From: a virus
Taxonomy: Duplodnaviria; Caudoviricetes
Direction: 5' to 3' (one strand)
Virus record (IMG/VR): IMGVR_UViG_3300044648_000159
Coordinates: 1-58,566 of that record
Length of the DNA: 58,566 bases
In this document: positions 2,013 to 48,974 of the stretch, piece by piece
Layout of the letters: the number at the start of each line of letters is the position of its first letter
How positions within the stretch are numbered: the stretch's first letter is position 1
Position numbers and translations under genes: made by a program
The notes under the pieces: model-generated
What the model was told of the DNA's origin: nothing
Databases searched by the model: none
The model's input: only the letters and a program-made list of their open reading frames with translations

Positions 2013-3127
2013 GCCTATTTATGAAATCAGAAGCCGGTCATTCGCACTTAAAGGCGGGCCTGTTGGGTCTCGCCGGCTCAGGCAAGACCTACACCGCCAG
2101 CTCGATTGCTGTCGGTCTCGTTGGCTACATGCAAGAACGCGGTGTCTCGGCAAAGAAGCAGGTAGCGTTCGTTGATACAGAAAACGGCGCGGCCTGGGTC
2201 ACACCTCGCTTCAAGAAGGCAGGCATCGAGCTGATGGTCGCCCGAACTCGTGCGCTCACCGACCTCCGAGACGCCATTCGCTGGTCTGTTGACAACGCCG
2301 ACGTGCTGATCATCGACTCCATCACCCACTTCTGGACAATCTTTTGCGACGAGTACGCGGTTCGGAAGAATCGCAAGCGCGGGCTGGAGTTCTCTGACTG
2401 GAATCTGGTCAAGCGTGAGTGGCGCGAGAACTTCACCGACCTGTACCTCAACACCCCGCTGCACATCATCATGTGTGGCCGTCAGGGCTACGAGTATGAC
2501 ATGCAGGTCAACGATGCCGGCAAGAAGGAGCTCGTCAAGACTGGTGTGAAGATGAAGGCGGAGGGTGAAACTGGCTTCGAGCCATCCCTACTCGTCCAAA
2601 TGGAGCAAGAGCAGCTTCTTAAGGATGGGTCCGTCACTGGTGTGGAGCGCATCGCATACGTGCTCAAGGACCGTTCTACGTTCCTGGATGGCAAGACGTT
2701 GCGAGACCCGACATTCGCAGACTTCCTGCCGCACATCTCCGCTCTCGACATCGGCGGAGTCGGCGTTTCCGTCAACACCAACCGCAACAACGGTACGTTA
2801 TTCAGCCAAGACGGTAACGACACCGAGTGGAAACACCGCGAGACACAACGTGAGATCGCGCTTGAGGAGATCCAGGCTGAGATCGACAAGATGTTCCCAG
2901 GACAGAGTGCCGACGTTAAGGCCGCTCGTGGGGCGTATGTTGAAGAGATCTTCCAGACTCGGTCGAAGACCGCCATCGAGCGGAAGTCCTTGGATGAGCT
3001 TGTCGAAGCGCGAAACAAGGTTTGGATGAAGTCTCGTGGCCACGAATATGGCGTCCAACCACCGCCAATCGAATTGAAGCTTGAGGTTGAAGTGCCGATC
3101 GAAGCGCCGAAGGAGAACGCGGCGTGA
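2009..3127 (+). CDS. Sak4-like / AAA_24 recombination ATPase
   Basis: Walker [13 protein letters not shown], Walker [11 protein letters not shown]; adjacent to SSB. Confidence 0.8.
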
Positions 3128-3546
3128 GCGGCCTCAACAAAGTTCAGATCATCGGCCACCTCGGCGCGGATCCCGACACGCGCTACATGCCGAGCGGCAA
3201 GCCGGTGACAAACATCCGCGTGGCCACGTCCGAAACCTGGAAGGACAAAGAGAGCGGTGATCGCAAGGAGAAGACTGAGTGGCACTCAATCGTCTTCTTC
3301 GACAAGTTGGCTGAGATCGCCGCCGAGTACTTGCGCAAAGGGTCGCAGGTGTATGTCGAGGGCAAGCTGCAAACGCGGAAGTGGCAGGACAAGGAAGGCA
3401 AGGACCGCTACACCACCGAGATCATCGCGCAGCAGATGCAGATGCTTGGCGGCAAGCCGCAGGGGGAACGCCCGGCGAAGTCGCAGCAGGAACGGTCAGT
3501 GCCGCCTGCTGATGATGGTGGCTTCGACGACGACATACCGTTCTGA
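3124..3546 (+). CDS. ssb: Single-stranded DNA-binding protein
   Basis: [36 protein letters not shown]-terminal FDDDIPF. Confidence 0.97.
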
Positions 3547-4364: not shown

Positions 4365-5192
4365 ATGAACACAGCAACACCGGCCGTCACCGTCAACGAC
4401 ATCCTGGACCGATTCGAATCGGAGTACATCCCTTACGAGCTCAGCCCGCGTACCGCCCGGGACTACGCCAGGCATGTGCGCGACCTGCGCAGATGGTTTG
4501 GCGAGCGGATAGCGGACGAGATGAGGCCGCGGGACTTCGCGCAGTTCATGAATGTGCGCAAGGGGCGTATCCAGCGGAACAAGCAACTGGCCGTTCTCTC
4601 GTGCGCCTTTCAGCAGGCAGTTTCCTGTTGGTTCATCGTAGACCGCAATCCCTGCAGAGATGTGAAGCGGCATCGCTCACGTCCGCGCGATCGATACATC
4701 ACAGAAGCCGAATTCAGGAGCTTTCAGGTGATGGTGCCGAAGCGCATGAAGATCGCCATGGAGCTGTCTCTGCTCACTGGCCAGCGTCAAGGCGACGTGC
4801 TGTCGCTGAGGTGGTCGCAGGTCGATCGTACTGCAGGCTGCATCCAGATTCAGCAGGGCAAGACCGGCAAGCGTCTCGAAATTGGGATCTCGCCAGCGCT
4901 GTCGGACGTGCTCGATCAGTGCGTCGATATGGCGCCTCCTGGCGAGTACGTCATTCGTCGGAGAGACGGAGAGCGCTACACGTCCGATGGCTTCCGAGCT
5001 ATCTGGCAAAGACACCAACGACGCTGGGCTGCGCTAGGGAACACCAGGTTTAGCTACCATGATATTCGCGCGAAATCAGCTAGCGAATGCAAGACGGTCG
5101 AGGAAGCAATGTTGCTTCTTGGCCACGCAAGCATCGGCATCACGCGCCGAATTTATGACCGCGGAGTGCGTCGAGTTCAACCGCTCAGATAG
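4365..5192 (+). CDS. Tyrosine recombinase lacking an arm-binding domain
   Basis: TGQR, QGKTG, HDIR, LLGH and RIYDR catalytic motifs; only 275 aa. Confidence 0.9.
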   Translation: MNTATPAVTVNDILDRFESEYIPYELSPRTARDYARHVRDLRRWFGERIADEMRPRDFAQFMNVRKGRIQRNKQLAVLSCAFQQAVSCWFIVDRNPCRDVKRHRSRPRDRYITEAEFRSFQVMVPKRMKIAMELSLLTGQRQGDVLSLRWSQVDRTAGCIQIQQGKTGKRLEIGISPALSDVLDQCVDMAPPGEYVIRRRDGERYTSDGFRAIWQRHQRRWAALGNTRFSYHDIRAKSASECKTVEEAMLLLGHASIGITRRIYDRGVRRVQPLR

Positions 5193-40837: not shown

Positions 40838-41074
40838 ATGGCACGCCAACTGATGAGTCAGAAAAACACGCGCAAATTGGCGCAACAGTCCGGTCTGGAC
40901 GTCATTGCAGTCCTCGTGCGCGGCGGGACGGGCCACCGGAAGGATCTCTGCCTTTCCGATGGCACTATCGTTTATCGATATCCAGACGGATCACTGATCC
41001 AGGACCCTTCCACTCGACACCCCTATAGGCGTCTTGCAGATGGAACTGTTCGGCATCAGACAAACATCACCTGA
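40838..41074 (+). CDS. Small opposite-strand gene between terL and protease
   Basis: 78 aa ORF filling the gap. Confidence 0.5.
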   Translation: MARQLMSQKNTRKLAQQSGLDVIAVLVRGGTGHRKDLCLSDGTIVYRYPDGSLIQDPSTRHPYRRLADGTVRHQTNIT

Positions 41075-42729
41075 TACTTCTTCTCGGGCTCGCGAGTACC
41101 GAGTGCACGGCCCATACTCATGACCAAGGCAACTGGACCATCGATCTTGCACCGAGGGTCGTGCTCGTTTTCCTTGCGCGGATAGATGTTCTCTTTCGCG
41201 TCGATCTTCGCCGCGACGTTGCCCATCATCCACGTCATCACCGGGTTGCCGTCATGCCAAAGGCGGCGACTGATGACGCGCGCCTCAACTTCCTTCATCG
41301 GTTCGCTCATGTTGCGCACCGTCTGATTGAAGTTGACGACTTTGTCCTTGAGGCTCGTGCTCTGCAGGCGGTTCATCAGGTCGTTCGCCTGCCAGTCATC
41401 GAAGCCGGCGTCCTGCAGGTCCACGATAGACGCGAACCGCTTGATGTCTTCCTCGATGAACGCGATGTCGGTCTGTGCGCCCGGAGTGACAATCAGATCA
41501 CCGCTCGTCGCAAACTGGCGGTACTTATCGTTCTCCTCAAGCGCTGCCTCGGGAACGTAGAACCGCGGGATGCAAAATGATTCCTGGCCACGCTCAAACA
41601 ACATCACCAGAGCCGCGACGTCCAGCTTGCTGGCAAGGTCCACACCCATCCAGCACGGCACGCCGCGGAAGTCTTCTACAGTCATCACCCGCTTCTGGCG
41701 CTGCCAGGCGAGCATGTTCATCCAGACGGTACGCGCACCAACCCATTCGTTTAGATGTTTGGTGCGGAATGAGTTTTGTTTGGTCGCCGAGCGCTTCGCT
41801 TGCGCGAGCTGCGCCAGCAGGAAGTCTTCAAAGACGCTGACACCGAAATTCGGGTTCGCTTTTTTCAGGCTGGCCGGGTCCTGCCAATCGTCCTCTTCGT
41901 CGATCCCATAAATTATGCCGAACTGCGTCTCGTCTTCGACCTGTCGTTCCAGGATGCGAATCACATCCCTACGTTTTTCGTAACAGGGGCCGCCTAGATT
42001 CGATCCGGCCGTCGTTATGATCGACAGCAATGGCTGCTCGCGAGCGCCCATGCCCGTTCGCATCGCGTCGGTCATGTGGTCACTGTCATGCTCGTGAAAT
42101 TCATCAATGAGAGCCGCATGCGGGCTGGAGCCGTCACCCGGCTTTCCAATCATCGTCTCGAACTTCGACATATCGCTGGTGATGTACAGCGGGCCCGGGT
42201 TCTTCGCATTCCCTGACTGGTCGATGCTGTATCGGTCACGCAGCGCCGGCAGCTTCTGCACCATCTGCCATGCCGGGCGGAAAATCTCGTGAGACTGTTT
42301 TTCAGTCGTCGCGCCGGAGTACACCTCTGCGCCAGCTTCACCATCGGCACAGAACAGATAGATTCCGCGGGCCGCGAGACGGATACTCTTGCCGTTTTTT
42401 CGAGGAACTTCCTCGAAAGACTCTCGAAACCTGCGCTTATCAGTGTCGCGATGGAGCCAACCGAAAAGATTGGCTTCGATGAAACATTGCCACGGCTGAA
42501 ACTTCAGTCGGTCGCGCTGCGCGGCCCATCGACCCTTTGTATGAGGCATTCGCTGCATGAATTCGCACGCGCGATTCGCGGCGTCTTCATTGAAGTAGTA
42601 CGGCCAATCCGTACGCTCCAGATCAGCAAGGAAACGTTGGCACGCCAGGCGAACGTACTTGCCGGCGACGACACGTCCGTCAACTACATCTCTCGCGTAA
42701 TGTTTCGCTCGATCAGATGATGTTTCCAT
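41056..42729 (-). CDS. terL: Terminase large subunit
   Basis: PWQ, VPRKNGKS, LIDEFH, GVDLA..D, KIDGPVA. Confidence 0.96.
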   Translation of the reverse strand: METSSDRAKHYARDVVDGRVVAGKYVRLACQRFLADLERTDWPYYFNEDAANRACEFMQRMPHTKGRWAAQRDRLKFQPWQCFIEANLFGWLHRDTDKRRFRESFEEVPRKNGKSIRLAARGIYLFCADGEAGAEVYSGATTEKQSHEIFRPAWQMVQKLPALRDRYSIDQSGNAKNPGPLYITSDMSKFETMIGKPGDGSSPHAALIDEFHEHDSDHMTDAMRTGMGAREQPLLSIITTAGSNLGGPCYEKRRDVIRILERQVEDETQFGIIYGIDEEDDWQDPASLKKANPNFGVSVFEDFLLAQLAQAKRSATKQNSFRTKHLNEWVGARTVWMNMLAWQRQKRVMTVEDFRGVPCWMGVDLASKLDVAALVMLFERGQESFCIPRFYVPEAALEENDKYRQFATSGDLIVTPGAQTDIAFIEEDIKRFASIVDLQDAGFDDWQANDLMNRLQSTSLKDKVVNFNQTVRNMSEPMKEVEARVISRRLWHDGNPVMTWMMGNVAAKIDAKENIYPRKENEHDPRCKIDGPVALVMSMGRALGTREPEKKYQVMFV

Positions 42730-42732
42730 TCG

Positions 42733-42762
42733 CCAAAGAAAAGGGCGACCGAAGTCGCCCTT
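42733..42762 (-). terminator. Intrinsic terminator closing the repeat-array transcript
   Basis: Minus strand AAGGGCGAC-TTCG-GTCGCCCTT-TTCTTT (UUCG tetraloop). Confidence 0.88.
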
Positions 42763-43221
42763 GTTGCCTCACCGTTTCTCAACTGGCCTCATCTGGCCTA
42801 ACCTCACCTCGCCGGCCTCGCCCGACCAAGCCATGTTCTCCTTGCCGTATCGCAATCGACCGCGCCACGCCCGCCACGCCTAACCCGGCCCGACCAGTCC
42901 GCAACAAGCCCCATCTTGCCCGGCCTTGCCGGTCATGCCTCACCCGGCCGTAACAGACCGCGCCGTTCACTGCCACGCCCAACCAATCCCCGCCTTGCCT
43001 GCCAAGCCACATCTCGCCTATAGCACCTGACCTTATCTCACCGTGGCTGCCTCGCCCGGTCTTGCCCGGCCCGGCCGCACCTAACCCGGCCTGCCTCGCC
43101 AATCCGCGTTAGGCCATACCAAACGCCAACCTCGCCTAGTCCTTCACGCCGCGCCTGCCTAGCCCCGCCACGCCCTCCGAGCCGGACTATACCCAGCCAG
43201 CCCCTACCTAGCCCGCCTTGC
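42763..43221 (-). ncRNA. GGY-NN pentamer array, putative multi-guide non-coding RNA
   Basis: About 90 five-nt periods, ~68 with exact GGC/GGT by hand count, variable NN; 4-nt GGCN breaks every 44-69 nt; bounded by a stop codon and a terminator. Confidence 0.75.
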
Positions 43222-43719
43222 CTATGCGTTCGGCCGATTCTCCGGCTTACGCTTCTCTGCCTTCGACTTCGCGCGGTTGACGCCAGCAATCAGGCGATCA
43301 ACTTCGGAGCGCAGATTCAGCGCCGCCGCGACCTCCTGGGCCCGAGTTAGCGCCGCCTGCGCACGAGCAAACTCGTAGATGATGGCCCTGCGCGCAAGCT
43401 CTTCATCGTCACGAAGTGCCGTGATGCTGATATATCCTTGCTCACGCGCCGGCACAGACGGGTCACGAACGTAAGCAACCGAAGTGACAATTGTGGCGTC
43501 TGTCCTGCTCATCACGCGCACAACACGTATCAATTCGCGGGCTGTGTCGAGCCAGTGCGCATACGAAGCCTTGCTGACATCCCACTCAAATCTGTCATGC
43601 AGCGGGCTATCTGGATCGCGAGCATCTTCGACAACGGCGTCGGGGCGAATGCGCCCGCCACTTCTGGCGGCGATCTCATCTATTCTCTCGCGAATTTGCG
43701 CAATGTTTTCCATTGTCAC
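43222..43719 (-). CDS. Partner protein of the Cas7-like gene
   Basis: PDAVVEDARDPDSPLHDRFEWD..A..ARELIR; GTGA-coupled to the upstream gene. Confidence 0.75.
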   Translation of the reverse strand: MTMENIAQIRERIDEIAARSGGRIRPDAVVEDARDPDSPLHDRFEWDVSKASYAHWLDTARELIRVVRVMSRTDATIVTSVAYVRDPSVPAREQGYISITALRDDEELARRAIIYEFARAQAALTRAQEVAAALNLRSEVDRLIAGVNRAKSKAEKRKPENRPNA

Positions 43720-44480
43720 GCCACCTTGAAACCACGACGCTGCACTTCAACGTCGAACCACGATAAGAGACTCTGCGTTTCATCGTCGTAACACTCGGGA
43801 TTGGCCAGCGCCTCGTCCTGGGCTTTGCGCACGCCCGTCTTTGTGATGCGCCCGAAATCCGGATCTGATGGCGCACACAGTCGAAACGTTCCATAAGAGC
43901 CAGCGCCCTTCTCAACGCGCCAGTCACCCACGCCGGCCGTGATGCCCCCGGCGGCCAGCAGGTTCGCCACCGACTGCTCGCGCATGATCGGCTTCACGAA
44001 CTTGACCGTGATGCGACACGCCCACTCTGGAACGATCGCGCGGCTGCGCACGTCCGGCGTGCGATTCATGTCCGCCGAGCGCGTTACCGACATCAGAAGC
44101 TGCGGCACACCGAACAGGTCGACGCGGTCGCCCTCGATGTACACCAGCCGGCCGATCTGCGCCTTCTTCGCGCCAGGGATATCCAGCGCCGCTGTACGCA
44201 TCGCGCCCTTGAACATCGACGCCAGCAGCTGCAAGCGCGTTTTGCCGCCGTCGCCCTGTGACATGTATGGCGAGGCGCGGAACTCAGCAAGCGGATCGTG
44301 CTTCAAGGTCGAAGCCTTTTCCGCCGCGTTCTTCCGACCCTTCGGCATCAGCAGTTCGCGCTGTGCCTTCTCACTCATCCGGTTCAAGATGATCGGGCTC
44401 GTTCCAATGACGCAGAAGTCCATCGCTCCCTGCATCACTTCCATCACGAAAACTTCGCTCTCGTCTTTCGGCTTTGCCAT
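43716..44480 (-). CDS. Cas7/RAMP-like RNA-binding protein
   Basis: N-terminal IGTSPIILN, FKGAMRTAA helix, C-terminal Gly-rich loop GGITAGVGDWRVEKGAGSYGTF; GGAG RBS before ATG 44480. Confidence 0.7.
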   Translation of the reverse strand: MAKPKDESEVFVMEVMQGAMDFCVIGTSPIILNRMSEKAQRELLMPKGRKNAAEKASTLKHDPLAEFRASPYMSQGDGGKTRLQLLASMFKGAMRTAALDIPGAKKAQIGRLVYIEGDRVDLFGVPQLLMSVTRSADMNRTPDVRSRAIVPEWACRITVKFVKPIMREQSVANLLAAGGITAGVGDWRVEKGAGSYGTFRLCAPSDPDFGRITKTGVRKAQDEALANPECYDDETQSLLSWFDVEVQRRGFKVA

Positions 44481-44521
44481 CACGCTCTCCATTCTTTGGG
44501 TAGAAAGTACCGTCGAATGAG

Positions 44522-44571
44522 AGATTAATACAGCTTTCTGTATTGCTGCAACAGTTTACTGTATTTATTCT
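44522..44571. promoter_or_regulatory. Divergent promoters with two ACAG-N4-CTGT operators
   Basis: AATACAG-cttt-CTGTATT (44527-44544) and ACAG-ttta-CTGT (44551-44562); plus TTGCTG-17-TATTCT; minus TTGCAG-18-TAATCT. Confidence 0.65.
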
Positions 44572-44578
44572 TCAGCCT

Positions 44579-44812
44579 ATGAACGGGACAATGCCGGCCG
44601 TGATTACCGGCCCCAAACTCAAAGCCATCCGAGCGCTACGCGGCATGACGCAGGCGGAGCTCGCCCACCTTGCGGGCATCAGTCCTGTGACCATCGCCAC
44701 CTTCGAAGCTGGAAAATCCCATCTTCGAACCGACACCGTCGTCAAACTCTGTGAAGCCCTCGGCGTGAAGGTCAGCTACCACGTCGACGGCACCGAAATC
44801 TCCGGTCCCTAA
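44579..44812 (+). CDS. XRE-family HTH regulator (possibly leaderless)
   Basis: LKAIRALRGMTQAELAHLAGIS..TIATFEAG...LCEALGV; ATG 7 nt after the -10 box. Confidence 0.85.
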   Translation: MNGTMPAVITGPKLKAIRALRGMTQAELAHLAGISPVTIATFEAGKSHLRTDTVVKLCEALGVKVSYHVDGTEISGP

Positions 44813-45192
44813 AATCGATCGAACTCGTTGCCCTCATCGCCAGGCTTCTCAGTCCCAAGCTTCTGACGATCGGCAGGCGTCATACCGAGCCGAGCCAACA
44901 TTCCTATTAGATGGGTGTACTTGCCAACCGCGAACTCGGGCGGGCTCTTCCGATACTCGGCCAGCAAATTGGCCAATGTTTCCAGCGCAACTCGGTCAGC
45001 ACCCTTCAGCACGCCAGTCGGCGCCAGCGATTCGAGCTCGAACCAGCACGCCTTCGCTTCGTCGGTCAAATGTGCCGGCGCAGTTCCGATCGGCTGCTCG
45101 ACGGCGGGCGGTGTCTTGCGATACCGCTCAGGGTGTTTACGTGTCGCCCCTTTCAGCTCGGCGACTTCGCGGCTTTGCGGGTGACGAGCCAT
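44809..45192 (-). CDS. terS: Terminase small subunit (P27-like)
   Basis: ELKG, APAHL..EAK..W, LGMTPADR.KL...NEFDRF. Confidence 0.88.
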   Translation of the reverse strand: MARHPQSREVAELKGATRKHPERYRKTPPAVEQPIGTAPAHLTDEAKACWFELESLAPTGVLKGADRVALETLANLLAEYRKSPPEFAVGKYTHLIGMLARLGMTPADRQKLGTEKPGDEGNEFDRF

Positions 45193-45339
45193 AATCAAAC
45201 TTTAGTTGATGATCTAAATTATTGACGCGACACAGCGGTTAGCTTCGGCTCATCAAAATGTGCGTGTGCATACGCACTGTTCGGCGCGATTGGGCGGTGC
45301 AGCTTGCGCAGTCGCAGCAAAAGTTAATTCTGGAGAGGT

Positions 45340-47106: not shown

Positions 47107-48974
47107 CTTCGTGGAACTCTAAACCATCGATGTGCCGGAATGATGATCTCCGATTCCTCGGTCGTGCTGGTGAACGTATCCGACACACCACCGATCGTAA
47201 TGACGGTGTTAGTGGCGGTCTCGTAGCTCGCGCTGCTTGTATGCCGGGCTCGGACCGTATCGCCCACCTCAACCGTCCCAGGAGTACTGACGAATGTCCC
47301 CGACCCGTTGATATCGTAGGTGCCACCAGTCACGGAGATGGTCGCAGGGGCATCTATGCCGGCCACGGTAATCGCGGCTGACGTAATCACGGTCGAGCGC
47401 GCGACATCCGTCTGATCAGTGAACGTGAACGCATTGGGCGTGGTGTCTTCACCAGGCTCAGCAGCTTCGGTGGTACTGGTGAATGTGTCAGATACGCCGC
47501 CGATCGTTACGACAGTATTGGTAGCGGTCGAATTGCTCGAACTGCTGGTGTGCCGGGCCCGAACCGTGTCACCGTTACTGACCGTGCCAGACGTGCCAAC
47601 GAAGGTGCCCGAGGCGTTAATGTCGTAGGTGCCGCCAGTGACCGAAATGGTGGCTGGAGCGTCGATCCCCGAGACAGTAATCGCGGCCGAAGTAATGACC
47701 GTCGAAAGTGCTACATCCGTCTGGTCGGTGAAGCTAAACGCATTCGGCGTCGTGTCGTCTTCTGGATCAGATTCGGTGGTGCTTGTGAAAGTGTCAGAAA
47801 CACCGCCAATCGTGACAACGGTGTTGGTAGCCGTTGAATAGCTGGCGCTACTGGTGTGCCGAGCTCGCACGGTGTCGCCATTGTTGACCGTGCCCGACGA
47901 GGTTACGAACGTACCGGAGCCATTGATGTCGTAGCTACCGCCACTGACCGTGATAGTCGCGGCTGCATCGATACCGCTGACGGTAATCGACGCCGATGTG
48001 ATCGTGCTCGAGAGCGCAACGCTTGTCTGATCGGTGAAGCTGAAAGCGTTGGGCGTCGTATCGTCTTCGCCCTCCAGGAACCCCGGCGGCGGCCCGATCC
48101 AATCATTAATCCCCAAGTTCGCCGCAAAAGTCGCGTGCGAGTACATAACATAGTTGCCGACGTTCGCCGTGCCGACCGTGTTGAAGTAAAAGCCAAGACC
48201 TTCAAACTGGCCCGCATATTGCGCGTCGAAATCCCAACTTGGTTCCCAGTTCAACGGGACGCTAAGAGTTCGGACAACCACACCATCACGCGTTGTGACC
48301 CGAACCTTGTGTCTGCCGTTCGCGTTGCCTCGATCCTGACGCAGATCAATCATCTGCTCGAAACACAGCCACTCACCACCGGTTTGCGGAGGACCGGCGG
48401 CATGATTCGCCGAGCCTCGGATCTCAATGAGTTTGTTTGCGTCGGGACCGGAATCGATCGAGCCGGACGTCGGCGGCTCATGAAAGTTCGGGGTGGTAGT
48501 GACGGTTTGGTATGGATATTTCCAATTGTTCCAAACTGGCTGTCGGTGATCGAACACCGCGAGCCGATGATTCTGGCTATCACCAATGACCGTTGTGCAC
48601 TGGAATCCCCAGCATTTTGCATCGGGAGCTAGATCGAAATACCTGGGGCCGTAGTACACCAGGGTCCGAAAATTCATCTGGCCGATGTCGTTGACGCCAT
48701 CGGTGAGATCCAGAAACCGCAGCCAGCAGGCGTATTGCCCCTCACCGCCTACCGTCGCAGTTGGCGGATAGATCCGGACCGCATTCTCAGCGCCGTCGAA
48801 CGAGCCGCCGGCGACGATATCCATCGTCGCGCCGTTGCCAGATGTCAGCTGCTGGCCCAGCCCAGCGAAGCTGCCGCCAACTTCGATCCCAACGGTCTGG
48901 CCATCTGTCGCGAGCGCTGTTCCGATATCGGCAACGTCGCTAATGTATGTATTAGCCCACGTCAACTCCGCCAC
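47103..48974 (-). CDS. Large beta-rich protein with three ~101-aa Ig-like tandem repeats
   Basis: Three copies of DTTPNAF.FTDQT...TIGGVSDTFTSTTE. Confidence 0.8.
   Translation of the reverse strand: MAELTWANTYISDVADIGTALATDGQTVGIEVGGSFAGLGQQLTSGNGATMDIVAGGSFDGAENAVRIYPPTATVGGEGQYACWLRFLDLTDGVNDIGQMNFRTLVYYGPRYFDLAPDAKCWGFQCTTVIGDSQNHRLAVFDHRQPVWNNWKYPYQTVTTTPNFHEPPTSGSIDSGPDANKLIEIRGSANHAAGPPQTGGEWLCFEQMIDLRQDRGNANGRHKVRVTTRDGVVVRTLSVPLNWEPSWDFDAQYAGQFEGLGFYFNTVGTANVGNYVMYSHATFAANLGINDWIGPPPGFLEGEDDTTPNAFSFTDQTSVALSSTITSASITVSGIDAAATITVSGGSYDINGSGTFVTSSGTVNNGDTVRARHTSSASYSTATNTVVTIGGVSDTFTSTTESDPEDDTTPNAFSFTDQTDVALSTVITSAAITVSGIDAPATISVTGGTYDINASGTFVGTSGTVSNGDTVRARHTSSSSNSTATNTVVTIGGVSDTFTSTTEAAEPGEDTTPNAFTFTDQTDVARSTVITSAAITVAGIDAPATISVTGGTYDINGSGTFVSTPGTVEVGDTVRARHTSSASYETATNTVITIGGVSDTFTSTTEESEIIIPAHRWFRVPRR

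What the first reader, a model, noticed from the sequence alone, without database searches (positions are those of the whole stretch)
42763..43221. The array has a 5-nt period and is split into ~8 guide-sized blocks
Minus-strand example: GGC-AA GGC-CG GGC-AA GAT-GG GGC-TT GTT-GC GGA-CT GGT-CG GGC-CG GGT-TA GGC-GT. A hand count gives ~68 exact GGY units and ~25 degenerate ones that mostly keep phase. Four-nt breaks (GGCA/GGCG/GGCC, one GACC) occur near 43211, 43153, 43089, 43045, 42997, 42928, 42869 and 42811, spaced 44-69 nt. NN strings differ per block, e.g. CG-TA-GC-CG-CG-AA-CG-GA; AA-GG-TT-TG-GT-AG-AC-GC-CT-AC-CG-GA-AT; AA-CG-AA-GG-TT-GC-CT-CG-CG-TA-GT; GA-GA-TA-CA-GA-CA-GA-AC-GA. A period of 5 does not fit codon structure, and diverse NN does not fit simple slippage. 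Inference: the information sits in NN and the breaks mark processing sites.
Basis: partly seen in the sequence, partly recalled or inferred. Interest (0 to 1): 0.9.

Follow-up and report, generated by a model that had tools for sequence, protein, structure and literature searches.

The report
Phage VIPR guide-RNA array
This is the guide-RNA array of a VIPR system, a CRISPR-related phage weapon first described in 2026, and one of its guides spells the catalytic motif of rival phages' DNA-packaging enzyme.

Summary
Window 42763-43221 (minus strand) is 47% G, has strong 5-nt periodicity (lag-5 z 6.4) and holds 68 GGY against 36.4 +/- 3.9 in shuffles. Its phase is broken only by 4-nt units.

It is not a new kind of thing. 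It is the vrRNA array of a VIPR system (bioRxiv 10.64898/2026.04.26.720920, June 2026). The 258-aa gene upstream has a Cas7-type RAMP fold and matches the SUSP1 Vipr G-loop. A conserved 165-aa partner follows it. In 59 of 61 related loci the same gene sits beside the same kind of array.

The array is of the tail-less "staggered" form. The preprint draws that form but reports no RNA sequencing of it.

The last block (10 units, 42764-42813), read by the published rule of two bases read and one skipped, matches six IMG/VR contigs exactly. All six sites lie in terminase large-subunit genes, at the motif DEYHEHDTD[KN], with the skipped base at the wobble position. Four control or other patterns of equal size gave no hits. 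The phage's own terminase matches 17 of 20.

No target was found for the other long blocks, and no RNA data exist.

This scan has already noted VIPR arrays in at least 140 other genomes. Verdict: new member of a known kind.

The parts
43716..44492 (-). vipr: 258-aa stand-alone RAMP (Cas7-like) protein, phrog_4652
   Evidence: No Pfam family; PHROG of unknown function. AF2 model pLDDT 80.3. Foldseek against PDB gives 42 hits at E<=0.001, and the listed ones are Csm3, Cmr4, Cas7-11 and type VII Cas7 subunits. A family profile hits PDB 36pp_D 'SUSP1 Vipr protein' at E 6.8e-4. hhalign to SUSP1 Vipr gives 95.2% probability and E 2.7e-8 over 51 columns that include GVGDWR.
43222..43719 (-). vap-like accessory gene, 165 aa, phrog_15946; its stop codon abuts the first repeat
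   Evidence: It is conserved next to vipr in the 13 loci I aligned, with invariant P39, H41, W46, R61, Y83, Y96 and R126. AF2 pLDDT 88.9. Only weak, non-significant winged-helix-like fold matches. No similarity to SUSP1 vap1 (E 30).
42763..43222 (-). staggered vrRNA array: 82 five-nt GGY-NN units in 14 in-phase runs, joined by 12 four-nt junction units
43052..43091 (-). block of 8 units (candidate guide); no convincing target
   Evidence: Parse. The 8-unit pattern gave 9 IMG/VR hits with no common gene or frame.
42935..42999 (-). block of 13 units (candidate guide); no target found
   Evidence: Units 1-10 gave 0 IMG/VR hits. Units 3-11 gave 4 metagenome hits that match only 0-3 of the other 8 positions.
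   Evidence: Units 1-10 gave 0 hits in IMG/VR and 0 in metagenome contigs.
42764..42813 (-). last block, 10 units: guide whose NN (GA GA TA CA GA CA GA AC GA AA) spell D/E-D/E-Y-H/Q-D/E-H/Q-D/E-T-D/E-K/N
   Evidence: 6 of 6 exact IMG/VR matches lie in TerL homologues at DEYHEHDTD[KN], on the sense strand, with the skip base at wobble. One 19/20 match lies in a prophage TerL among 802 bacterial genomes searched.
42741..42762 (-). intrinsic terminator hairpin directly after the last unit; possibly also serves as the 3' tail of the last vrRNA
   Evidence: It is identical in the relative L002.
41056..42729 (-). the phage's own terminase large subunit (context)
   Evidence: Pfam TerL_ATPase and TerL_nuclease.
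42077..42106 (-). own TerL codons for DEFHEHDSDH: the near-target of the last guide (17 of 20 NN)
44543..44812 (+). divergent XRE-family HTH gene between terS and vipr (context; possible regulator)
   Evidence: Pfam HTH_3 at E 3.2e-15.
44809..45198 (-). terminase small subunit (context). The vipr cassette sits between terS and terL.
   Evidence: Pfam Terminase_4 and phrog_83.

Best explanation
The array is the guide-RNA (vrRNA) array of a phage-borne VIPR system of the tail-less, staggered kind.

Inferred for this locus: the minus strand is transcribed with or after vipr (43716-44492) and the vap-like gene (43222-43719), and transcription ends at the hairpin at 42741-42762.

Shown in the literature for the type II system of phage SUSP1: one Vipr protomer binds each pentamer. 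It buries GGY and presents the NN pair. The filament then reads double-stranded DNA two bases on, one base off, and represses transcription.

Shown here: the array is cut into in-phase runs, typically 8-13 units long, by 4-nt GGCN junctions. A 4-nt junction is equivalent to two pentamers overlapping by one base. The last run behaves as one guide of exactly 10 units.

Inferred: that guide directs Vipr to the Walker-B-type codons (hhhhDE, DEYHEHDTD[KN]) of the terminase large-subunit gene of rival phages that share this terminase family, and so blocks their DNA packaging. The phage's own terminase differs at three amino-acid-determining positions (F for Y, S for T, H for K/N) and is presumably spared. 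The remaining runs would be guides against elements that are not in the searched collections, or decayed guides.
For: Periodicity and GGY excess.

Phase breaks are only 4 nt. This holds in the window (12 of 12) and family-wide (605 of 605). The junction motif GGC-R-GGC is more conserved than ordinary units: C 0.88 against 0.55-0.59. Of 465 runs bounded by two junctions, 247 have 8-11 units, with the peak at 9.

Linkage to the protein. All 25 viral loci found through the 258-aa protein carry same-strand arrays, as do 34 of 36 genome loci.

Protein identity. Cas7-type fold. Profile links to SUSP1 Vipr. SUSP1 residues R138, D177 and R179, which hold the two G's and the Y, align to R151, D190 and R192. 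These are invariant in 25 of 25 family members. W178 aligns to W191, which is W in 17 of 25.

Variability. NN and Y vary while GG is kept between 96%-identical relatives.

Targeting. The last guide gives 6 exact IMG/VR hits. All six are in TerL homologues (39-47% identical to the phage's own TerL), at the same ten codons, on the sense strand, and the skipped bases vary among the six sites. Four other 20-base patterns gave 0 hits each: the reverse-order control, the 2-nt-skip control and two other guides. The codon before the site does not match the preceding junction unit, so the guide starts at the break.

Family-wide skip rule. With 354 unique guides against 0.9 Mb of related loci, only the 1-nt skip exceeds shuffles. 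27 guides reach >=85% NN match against 15.0 +/- 2.3 (maximum 19) in shuffles. Skips of 0, 2 and 3 nt give 16, 15 and 13 against 12.8, 13.8 and 16.3.

Mechanism and staggered arrays are as described in bioRxiv 10.64898/2026.04.26.720920 and .720927 (sections read).
Against: There is no RNA evidence. No RNA run holds this DNA, and the preprint's text says only the ribozyme-interspersed and single-vrRNA architectures were confirmed by sRNA-seq.

Only 1 of 4 long blocks has a target. The 13-unit and 11-unit blocks gave nothing at exact-match level. Hits for the 9-unit and 8-unit sub-patterns look like chance. None of the other guides hits the five target contigs even with 3 mismatches allowed.

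The own TerL site matches 17/20 (85%). That is above the >=80% cut-off the preprint uses to call a target, and equals the best of 30 shuffled guides on this window. Self-sparing is therefore assumed, not shown.

Sequence similarity to SUSP1 Vipr covers only the C-terminal 51 columns. Foldseek TM-scores are low (0.26-0.41). The protein is 258 aa against 195 aa for SUSP1 Vipr.

The accessory protein is unrelated to vap1. No conserved 3' tail separates the blocks.

Several of the family-wide skip-1 hits are 14/16, which is individually chance level.
Confidence: 0.9

Rival explanations
1. The array is a decoy or sponge. Its GGY-NN repeats soak up Vipr proteins of other phages, or redirect them, in the manner of the solo vrRNAs of satellites, rather than guiding the phage's own Vipr.
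For: Solo vrRNAs that redirect a foreign VIPR are reported in bioRxiv 10.64898/2026.10.15.759431 (abstract and passages). Most blocks here have no identified target.
Against: The array lies in cis with its own vipr and vap-like gene. That linkage holds in 59 of 61 related loci. The one identified target is a rival phage's essential gene, not a decoy site.
Confidence: 0.04
2. The signal acts at the DNA level. On this view it is a packaging (pac) or terminase-binding site, or an R-loop-prone G-rich spacer next to terL, and carries no guide information.
For: It lies between terS and terL. The G-rich strand is the non-template strand.
Against: In relatives the arrays sit upstream of vipr, between vipr and vap, or next to a portal gene, so they follow vipr rather than terL. 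Hypervariable NN beside conserved GG is not expected of a protein-binding DNA site. The codon-register match of one block to foreign TerL genes is left unexplained.
Confidence: 0.03
3. It is a slippage-generated simple repeat, or a spurious or novel coding region, with no function of its own.
For: Two ORFs of 107 and 83 aa can be drawn through it.
Against: Tandem Repeats Finder finds no array because the units differ. A period of 5 cannot be coding. The phase rule (only 4-nt breaks, 605 of 605) and the linkage to one protein family across several phyla argue for selection.
Confidence: 0.01

Closest known systems
VIPR systems with staggered vrRNA arrays (bioRxiv 10.64898/2026.04.26.720920, text and legend of fig. 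S18)
   Same: A stand-alone RAMP gene plus an accessory gene in a phage. GGY-NN pentamers. Successive guides offset by a 1-nt overlap (here a 4-nt GGCN junction), so that the end of one marks the start of the next. Targets lie in rival mobile elements and are read with a 1-nt skip.
   Different: I cannot say which of the seven types this locus belongs to, or whether it is among the 667 catalogued systems, because the supplementary tables are closed. The preprint's text reports no RNA sequencing of this architecture.
Type II VIPR of Escherichia phage SUSP1 (KT454805.2, 27499-29511; PDB 36pp)
   Same: Gene order of vipr then accessory gene, with flanking repeat RNA. G-loop GVGDWR and the thumb arginine are conserved. 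One guide targets catalytic-site codons of an essential gene of a competitor with the wobble base skipped. That parallels the satellite recombinase case.
   Different: SUSP1 has four separate ~100-nt vrRNAs. Each has a conserved leader and a hairpin/pseudoknot tail, and the repeats are GGT-rich. Here one continuous 459-nt GGC-rich array has no internal tails. Vipr is 258 aa against 195 aa. The accessory protein is unrelated. The identified target is a terminase gene of other phages, not a satellite.
CRISPR-Cas class 1 backbones (Cas7: Csm3, Cmr4, Cas7-11)
   Same: The RAMP fold, with one subunit per fixed number of guide nucleotides and periodic bases that do not pair.
   Different: No direct-repeat/spacer array. 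The period is 5 nt, not 6. Guide information is interleaved at every unit. No second RAMP and no other cas gene appears among the annotated neighbours.
TIGR-Tas arrays
   Same: Phage-associated tandem guide arrays that are not CRISPR (named).
   Different: An 18-nt period and a Nop-domain effector according to that paper. Neither is present here.
TRAP-type RNA binding (triplets spaced by 2-3 nt); recalled, not from a call
   Same: A protein oligomer reads a triplet every 5 nt.
   Different: This was my first lead only. The partner protein has a RAMP fold, not a TRAP fold, and the spacers carry target information.

Membership tests
VIPR system | Vipr protein: a minimal stand-alone RAMP (RRM core, glycine-rich loop, thumb) | tested here: met
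   AF2 model pLDDT 80.3. 42 Foldseek PDB hits at E<=0.001, and the listed ones are Cas7-family subunits. hhalign to SUSP1 Vipr gives 95.2% probability, E 2.7e-8. PDB 36pp_D is hit at E 6.8e-4. Caveat: TM-scores are 0.26-0.41.
VIPR system | Residues that hold GGY in SUSP1 Vipr (R138 thumb; D177, W178, R179 G-loop; H17 beta-sheet) | tested here: met
   R151, D190 and R192 align to R138, D177 and R179 and are invariant in 25 of 25. W191 is W in 17 of 25. H17 lies outside the aligned stretch. An invariant N37 in a similar GT-P----N strand is my reading only.
VIPR system | Tandem GGY-NN (YNNGG) pentamers in the intergenic DNA flanking vipr, on the same strand | tested here: met
   59 of 61 related loci. 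The two misses are a 34%-GC locus and a 1,020-nt contig.
VIPR system | GGY conserved while NN is hypervariable between close relatives | tested here: met
   Flanks 90-94% identical; G1 85%, G2 72%, Y 55%, N1 47%, N2 54% (one pair of loci only).
VIPR system | Guides of 9-16 repeats | tested here: met
   Window blocks have 8, 13, 11 and 10 units plus one junction unit. Family mode is 9, and 247 of 465 bounded runs have 8-11 units. The 5' half of the window array is broken into runs of 1-7 units.
VIPR system (type II form) | Invariable structured 3' tail after each repeat tract | tested here: not met
   No conserved non-repeat segment lies between blocks. Only the terminal hairpin at 42741-42762 follows the last block. 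SUSP1 shows the tails clearly. The preprint allows tail-less staggered arrays.
VIPR system (staggered array form) | Successive vrRNAs overlap by 1 nt, so the phase shifts by -1 at each boundary | tested here: met
   12 of 12 breaks in the window and 605 of 605 in 60 sources are 4 nt, and none is 6 nt, under equal penalties.
VIPR system | Adjacent accessory (vap) gene | tested here: inconclusive
   A conserved 165-aa partner is present. It is unrelated to SUSP1 vap1 and has no significant fold match. Which of vap1-6 it is, if any, needs the closed supplements.
VIPR system | Natural targets in competing mobile elements, read by the 1-nt skip rule with the skip at codon wobble | tested here: met
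   Met for 1 of 4 long guides: 6 of 6 exact hits in foreign TerL genes. Controls gave 0. The family-wide excess appears only for skip 1.
VIPR system | No self-target at >=80% NN match | tested here: not met
   Own TerL matches the last guide 17/20 = 85%. That equals the best of 30 shuffled guides, so it may be chance or a near-miss allele.
VIPR system | vrRNAs are expressed, processed and bound by Vipr; the RNP binds dsDNA and represses transcription | not testable with these tools
   No RNA holder is listed. This needs bench work.
CRISPR-Cas | Array of direct repeats of about 23-40 nt separated by spacers | tested here: not met
   Tandem repeat and Rfam scans are negative.

The most novel reading that the evidence does not exclude
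In this widespread Vipr clade (1,852 proteins found) guides are stored head to tail with no tails or ribozymes. They would be measured off at GGC-R-GGC junctions by the Vipr filament itself or by the 165-aa partner. The phage would use them for allele-specific exclusion of co-infecting relatives, silencing the rival's terminase at its catalytic Walker-B codons. Its own terminase has moved three amino acids away from the targeted allele. If so, guide pressure shapes a catalytic motif of an essential phage enzyme.
Probability: 0.35. Interest if true: 0.55.

Novelty: new member of a known kind. Interest (0 to 1): 0.3.

Why it matters
It adds nothing categorically new. VIPR was described in June 2026, and this scan has already met it in at least 140 other genomes.

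Its value is as a clean worked example of the least-studied architecture. The staggered array has no reported RNA sequencing in the preprint. Here one guide has boundaries that the target site itself defines: it starts at a 4-nt junction and ends at the terminator.

The target is a terminase Walker-B-type motif of rival phages, with a near-miss in the phage's own gene. This gives a concrete, testable case of how much mismatch VIPR tolerates. It also suggests that packaging genes are a battleground between related phages.

The related arrays I saw in cultured phages of Mycobacterium smegmatis and Gordonia terrae offer tractable hosts for mapping the RNA ends.

Tried and rejected
My first lead was a TRAP-like or terminase-binding RNA/DNA site with a 5-nt register. 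I dropped it once the partner protein proved to have a RAMP fold and the literature search surfaced VIPR.

Rfam at gathering and at E<=10 gave nothing but the terminator hairpin. blastn of the array against 50,697 phage records gave no match.

Target searches that led nowhere:
- 11-unit block, units 1-10: 0 hits in IMG/VR and 0 in metagenome contigs.
- 13-unit block, units 1-10: 0 hits in IMG/VR.
- 13-unit block, units 3-11: 4 metagenome hits. They match only 3, 3, 1 and 0 of the other 8 positions and lie in unrelated frames.
- 8-unit block: 9 IMG/VR hits with no shared gene. One lies in register in a long portal-like ORF. Two others lie in what look like spurious Arg-rich frames.
- The 13- and 11-unit guides against the five target contigs, with up to 3 mismatches: 0 of 5.

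Other negative results:
- A Vipr homologue in those five contigs: 0 of 5, only one of which is >=90% complete. The tool warns that an empty answer shows nothing.
- The last guide in 401 genomes of the phylum of G006: 0.
- The last guide in 401 genomes of the phylum of G007: 1 hit at 19/20, again a TerL. The backwards control also gave 1 hit.
- Self-target scan: no long guide exceeds shuffles on its own genome.
- Sequencing runs: no RNA holder is listed. Two DNA runs of soil metagenomes were listed, one of which may be the source. I did not lay reads, because contigs cannot show RNA ends.
- Fold of the 165-aa partner: no PDB match at E<=0.001. Three uncharacterised viral proteins matched in BFVD.

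I did not use complex prediction, the search of protein representatives, the protein-atlas search or the RNA-model tools.

Full report
What is there. The window is a complete 58,566-bp virus record with terminal repeats. On the minus strand the order is as follows:
- terS (44809-45198);
- a divergent XRE gene on the plus strand (44543-44812);
- a 258-aa gene of unknown family (43716-44492, phrog_4652);
- a 165-aa gene that overlaps its stop (43222-43719, phrog_15946);
- the 459-nt stretch in question;
- a strong terminator hairpin (42741-42762);
- terL (41056-42729).

Checking the observation. The stretch is 47% G. Base identity is periodic at lags 5, 10 and 15 (z 6.4, 5.6, 4.3) and depleted at lags 2, 3, 7 and 8. 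GGY occurs 68 times against 36.4 +/- 3.9 in shuffles. A parse that allowed 4-nt and 6-nt units at equal cost gives 82 pentamers (59 exact GGY, 23 degenerate) and 12 four-nt units, with no six-nt unit. I add four more breaks in the 5' half and near 42841.

Is it conserved? Searching viral contigs with the 258-aa protein gave 25 loci at 40-96% identity. All 25 carry G-rich period-5 arrays on the same strand. The arrays lie after the gene pair, sometimes also just before the first gene, and in one group between the two genes. Of 36 loci from bacterial genomes, spread over several phyla by their record titles, 34 have arrays. The two misses are a 34%-GC locus and a 1-kb contig. The detector flags only two other 100-nt stretches in the whole window. 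The protein family is large: 1,852 proteins at E<=0.001, none with a Pfam domain or an informative name among the 120 listed.

What it is. A literature search found bioRxiv 10.64898/2026.04.26.720920. I read the abstract, Results, Discussion, four Methods sections and the supplementary legends. It describes VIPR systems. These comprise a minimal RAMP protein (Vipr), an accessory gene (vap) and vrRNAs made of 9-16 GGY/NN pentamers. The NN pairs read double-stranded DNA with one base skipped per unit. The companion structural preprint (.720927; abstract and one section) shows one protomer per repeat and names the residues that hold the two G's and the Y.

My tests agree with that description:
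- The AF2 model of the 258-aa protein (pLDDT 80.3) hits Cas7-family subunits at the top of the PDB list. There are 42 hits at E<=0.001, although TM-scores are only 0.26-0.41.
- A 25-sequence profile hits the PDB chain named SUSP1 Vipr protein (E 6.8e-4).
- hhalign to the SUSP1 protein gives 95.2% probability over the last strand and the GVGDWR loop. I read that protein from record KT454805.2.
- SUSP1 R138, D177 and R179 align to R151, D190 and R192, which are invariant in all 25 family members.

How it differs from the studied system. SUSP1 has four separate ~100-nt RNAs, each with a leader and a hairpin tail. Here there is one continuous array with no internal tails. The 4-nt junctions are what a 1-nt overlap of successive pentamer tracts produces. 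That is how the preprint's legend to fig. S18 describes staggered arrays. The text says only the other two unusual architectures were confirmed by sRNA-seq.

The junction rule is strict across the family. All 605 phase breaks in 60 sources are 4 nt. They are mostly GGCA (249) and GGCG (135). The junction GGC is more conserved than ordinary units. Of 465 runs bounded by two junctions, 247 have 8-11 units, with the peak at 9. A minor group of 119 has 0-4 units and looks like decay or misparse.

Between the window and a relative whose Vipr is 96% identical, the flanks are 90-94% identical. Within the array, G1 is 85%, G2 72%, Y 55% and the two N positions 47% and 54% identical.

The accessory protein is conserved. 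It is unrelated to SUSP1 vap1 and has no significant fold match.

Does the code hold here? I turned the long blocks into patterns of two bases read and one skipped, and scanned the collections for exact matches.

The last block (42764-42813, 10 units) gave six IMG/VR contigs. In all six the site lies in a homologue of the terminase large subunit (39-47% identical to the phage's own). It falls at the same ten codons, DEYHEHDTD[KN], on the sense strand, and every skipped base falls at the wobble position. The six DNA sites differ from each other only at those skipped bases.

The motif follows four hydrophobic residues inside the TerL_ATPase domain. From general knowledge of the hhhhDE pattern I read it as the Walker B region.

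Four other patterns with 20 specified bases gave nothing. They were the same guide in reverse order, the same guide with 2-nt skips, and two other guides. A search of 802 bacterial genomes found one 19/20 site, again in a prophage TerL at this motif, against one hit for the backwards control.

The codon before the site does not fit the preceding junction unit. The guide therefore begins at the break and ends where the terminator begins.

The phage's own terL has DEFHEHDSDH at this place, 17 of 20 (42077-42106). TerL genes of other vipr-bearing relatives match 8-17 of 20.

Family-wide, 354 unique guides were searched against 0.9 Mb of related loci. Only the 1-nt skip shows an excess: 27 guides at >=85% against 15.0 +/- 2.3 in shuffles, while skips of 0, 2 and 3 nt sit at the null. 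Many single hits are 14/16 and individually weak.

What speaks against, or is missing. The 13-, 11- and 8-unit blocks have no convincing target. I could search only for exact matches, in collections that sample soil phages thinly. No RNA run holds this DNA, so transcription, processing at the junctions and loading onto Vipr are inferred. The own-gene match of 85% exceeds the preprint's 80% target threshold, so sparing of self is an assumption. The VIPR type cannot be named without the closed supplements.

Verdict. The locus is a new member of a known kind. This scan has already reported VIPR arrays in at least 140 other genomes, including a soil phage whose guides spell genes of related rival phages (e1-6045949, not checked by me). 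The modest added value is threefold. It is a staggered array with one guide whose limits the target itself defines. The identified target is a terminase catalytic motif. And the phage's own gene carries a near-miss allele, which makes mismatch tolerance testable.

Noticed in passing
window 42077-42106 (-): The phage's own terL matches its last guide at 17 of 20 read positions, in codon register (DEFHEHDSDH against the targeted DEYHEHDTD[KN]). This is above the 80% threshold the preprint uses to call targets. It could be an escaped allele, weak self-regulation, or chance, since it equals the best of 30 shuffles.
   Followed up: partly
L083 (Mycobacterium phage Saal, NC_023580.1) 2094-2345: The intergenic stretch just upstream of gene 51 is a dense GGC-NN array with GGCAGGC junctions. 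Gene 51 is a 30%-identical homologue of the 258-aa protein and is annotated as hypothetical. The locus lies in the immunity region between the antirepressor and excisionase genes. 27 Mycobacterium and 5 Gordonia phage records hold such a homologue.
   Followed up: partly
L084 (Gordonia phage Pipp, MN234179.1) about 3071-3220: The strongest 5-nt periodic, G-rich signal lies inside annotated CDS 43 (hypothetical protein), directly after the Vipr homologue (gene 42). That CDS may be a miscalled vrRNA array.
   Followed up: no
window 44543-44812 (+) and 44493-44542: An XRE-family HTH gene is transcribed divergently from vipr, and the whole cassette splits terS from terL. The strict sigma-70 scan found no promoter between 42600 and 45300. 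The operator idea of note e1-6281920 was not tested.
   Followed up: no
window 43100-43221 (-): The 5' third of the array is broken into runs of 1-7 units with several degenerate triplets. The closest relative has insertions of 11 and 24 nt there. It may hold decaying guides.
   Followed up: no
window 42779-43102 (-) and 43038-43289 (-): ORFs of 107 and 83 aa, rich in G and R, can be called through the array. They are artefacts of the repeat and would mislead automatic annotation.
   Followed up: partly
L081 3603-5978 (-): One of the nine chance-like hits of the 8-unit guide lies in codon register in a 792-aa ORF that looks like a portal fused to a minor head protein (my reading of the sequence; not checked against Pfam).
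   Followed up: no
window 48411-48510 (+) and 4367-4476 (-): These are the only other 100-nt stretches of the window that pass the G-rich period-5 detector. I did not examine them.
   Followed up: no
L056 4633 -> L002 3671; L058 4637 -> L021, L022, L024, L025, L026: Guides of two other vipr loci match TerL homologues at 14 of 16 positions, on the sense strand with the skip at wobble. Six shuffled sets gave 0, 0, 0, 0, 0 and 1 guides with such TerL hits. This hints that terminase genes are a recurrent target in this clade.
   Followed up: partly
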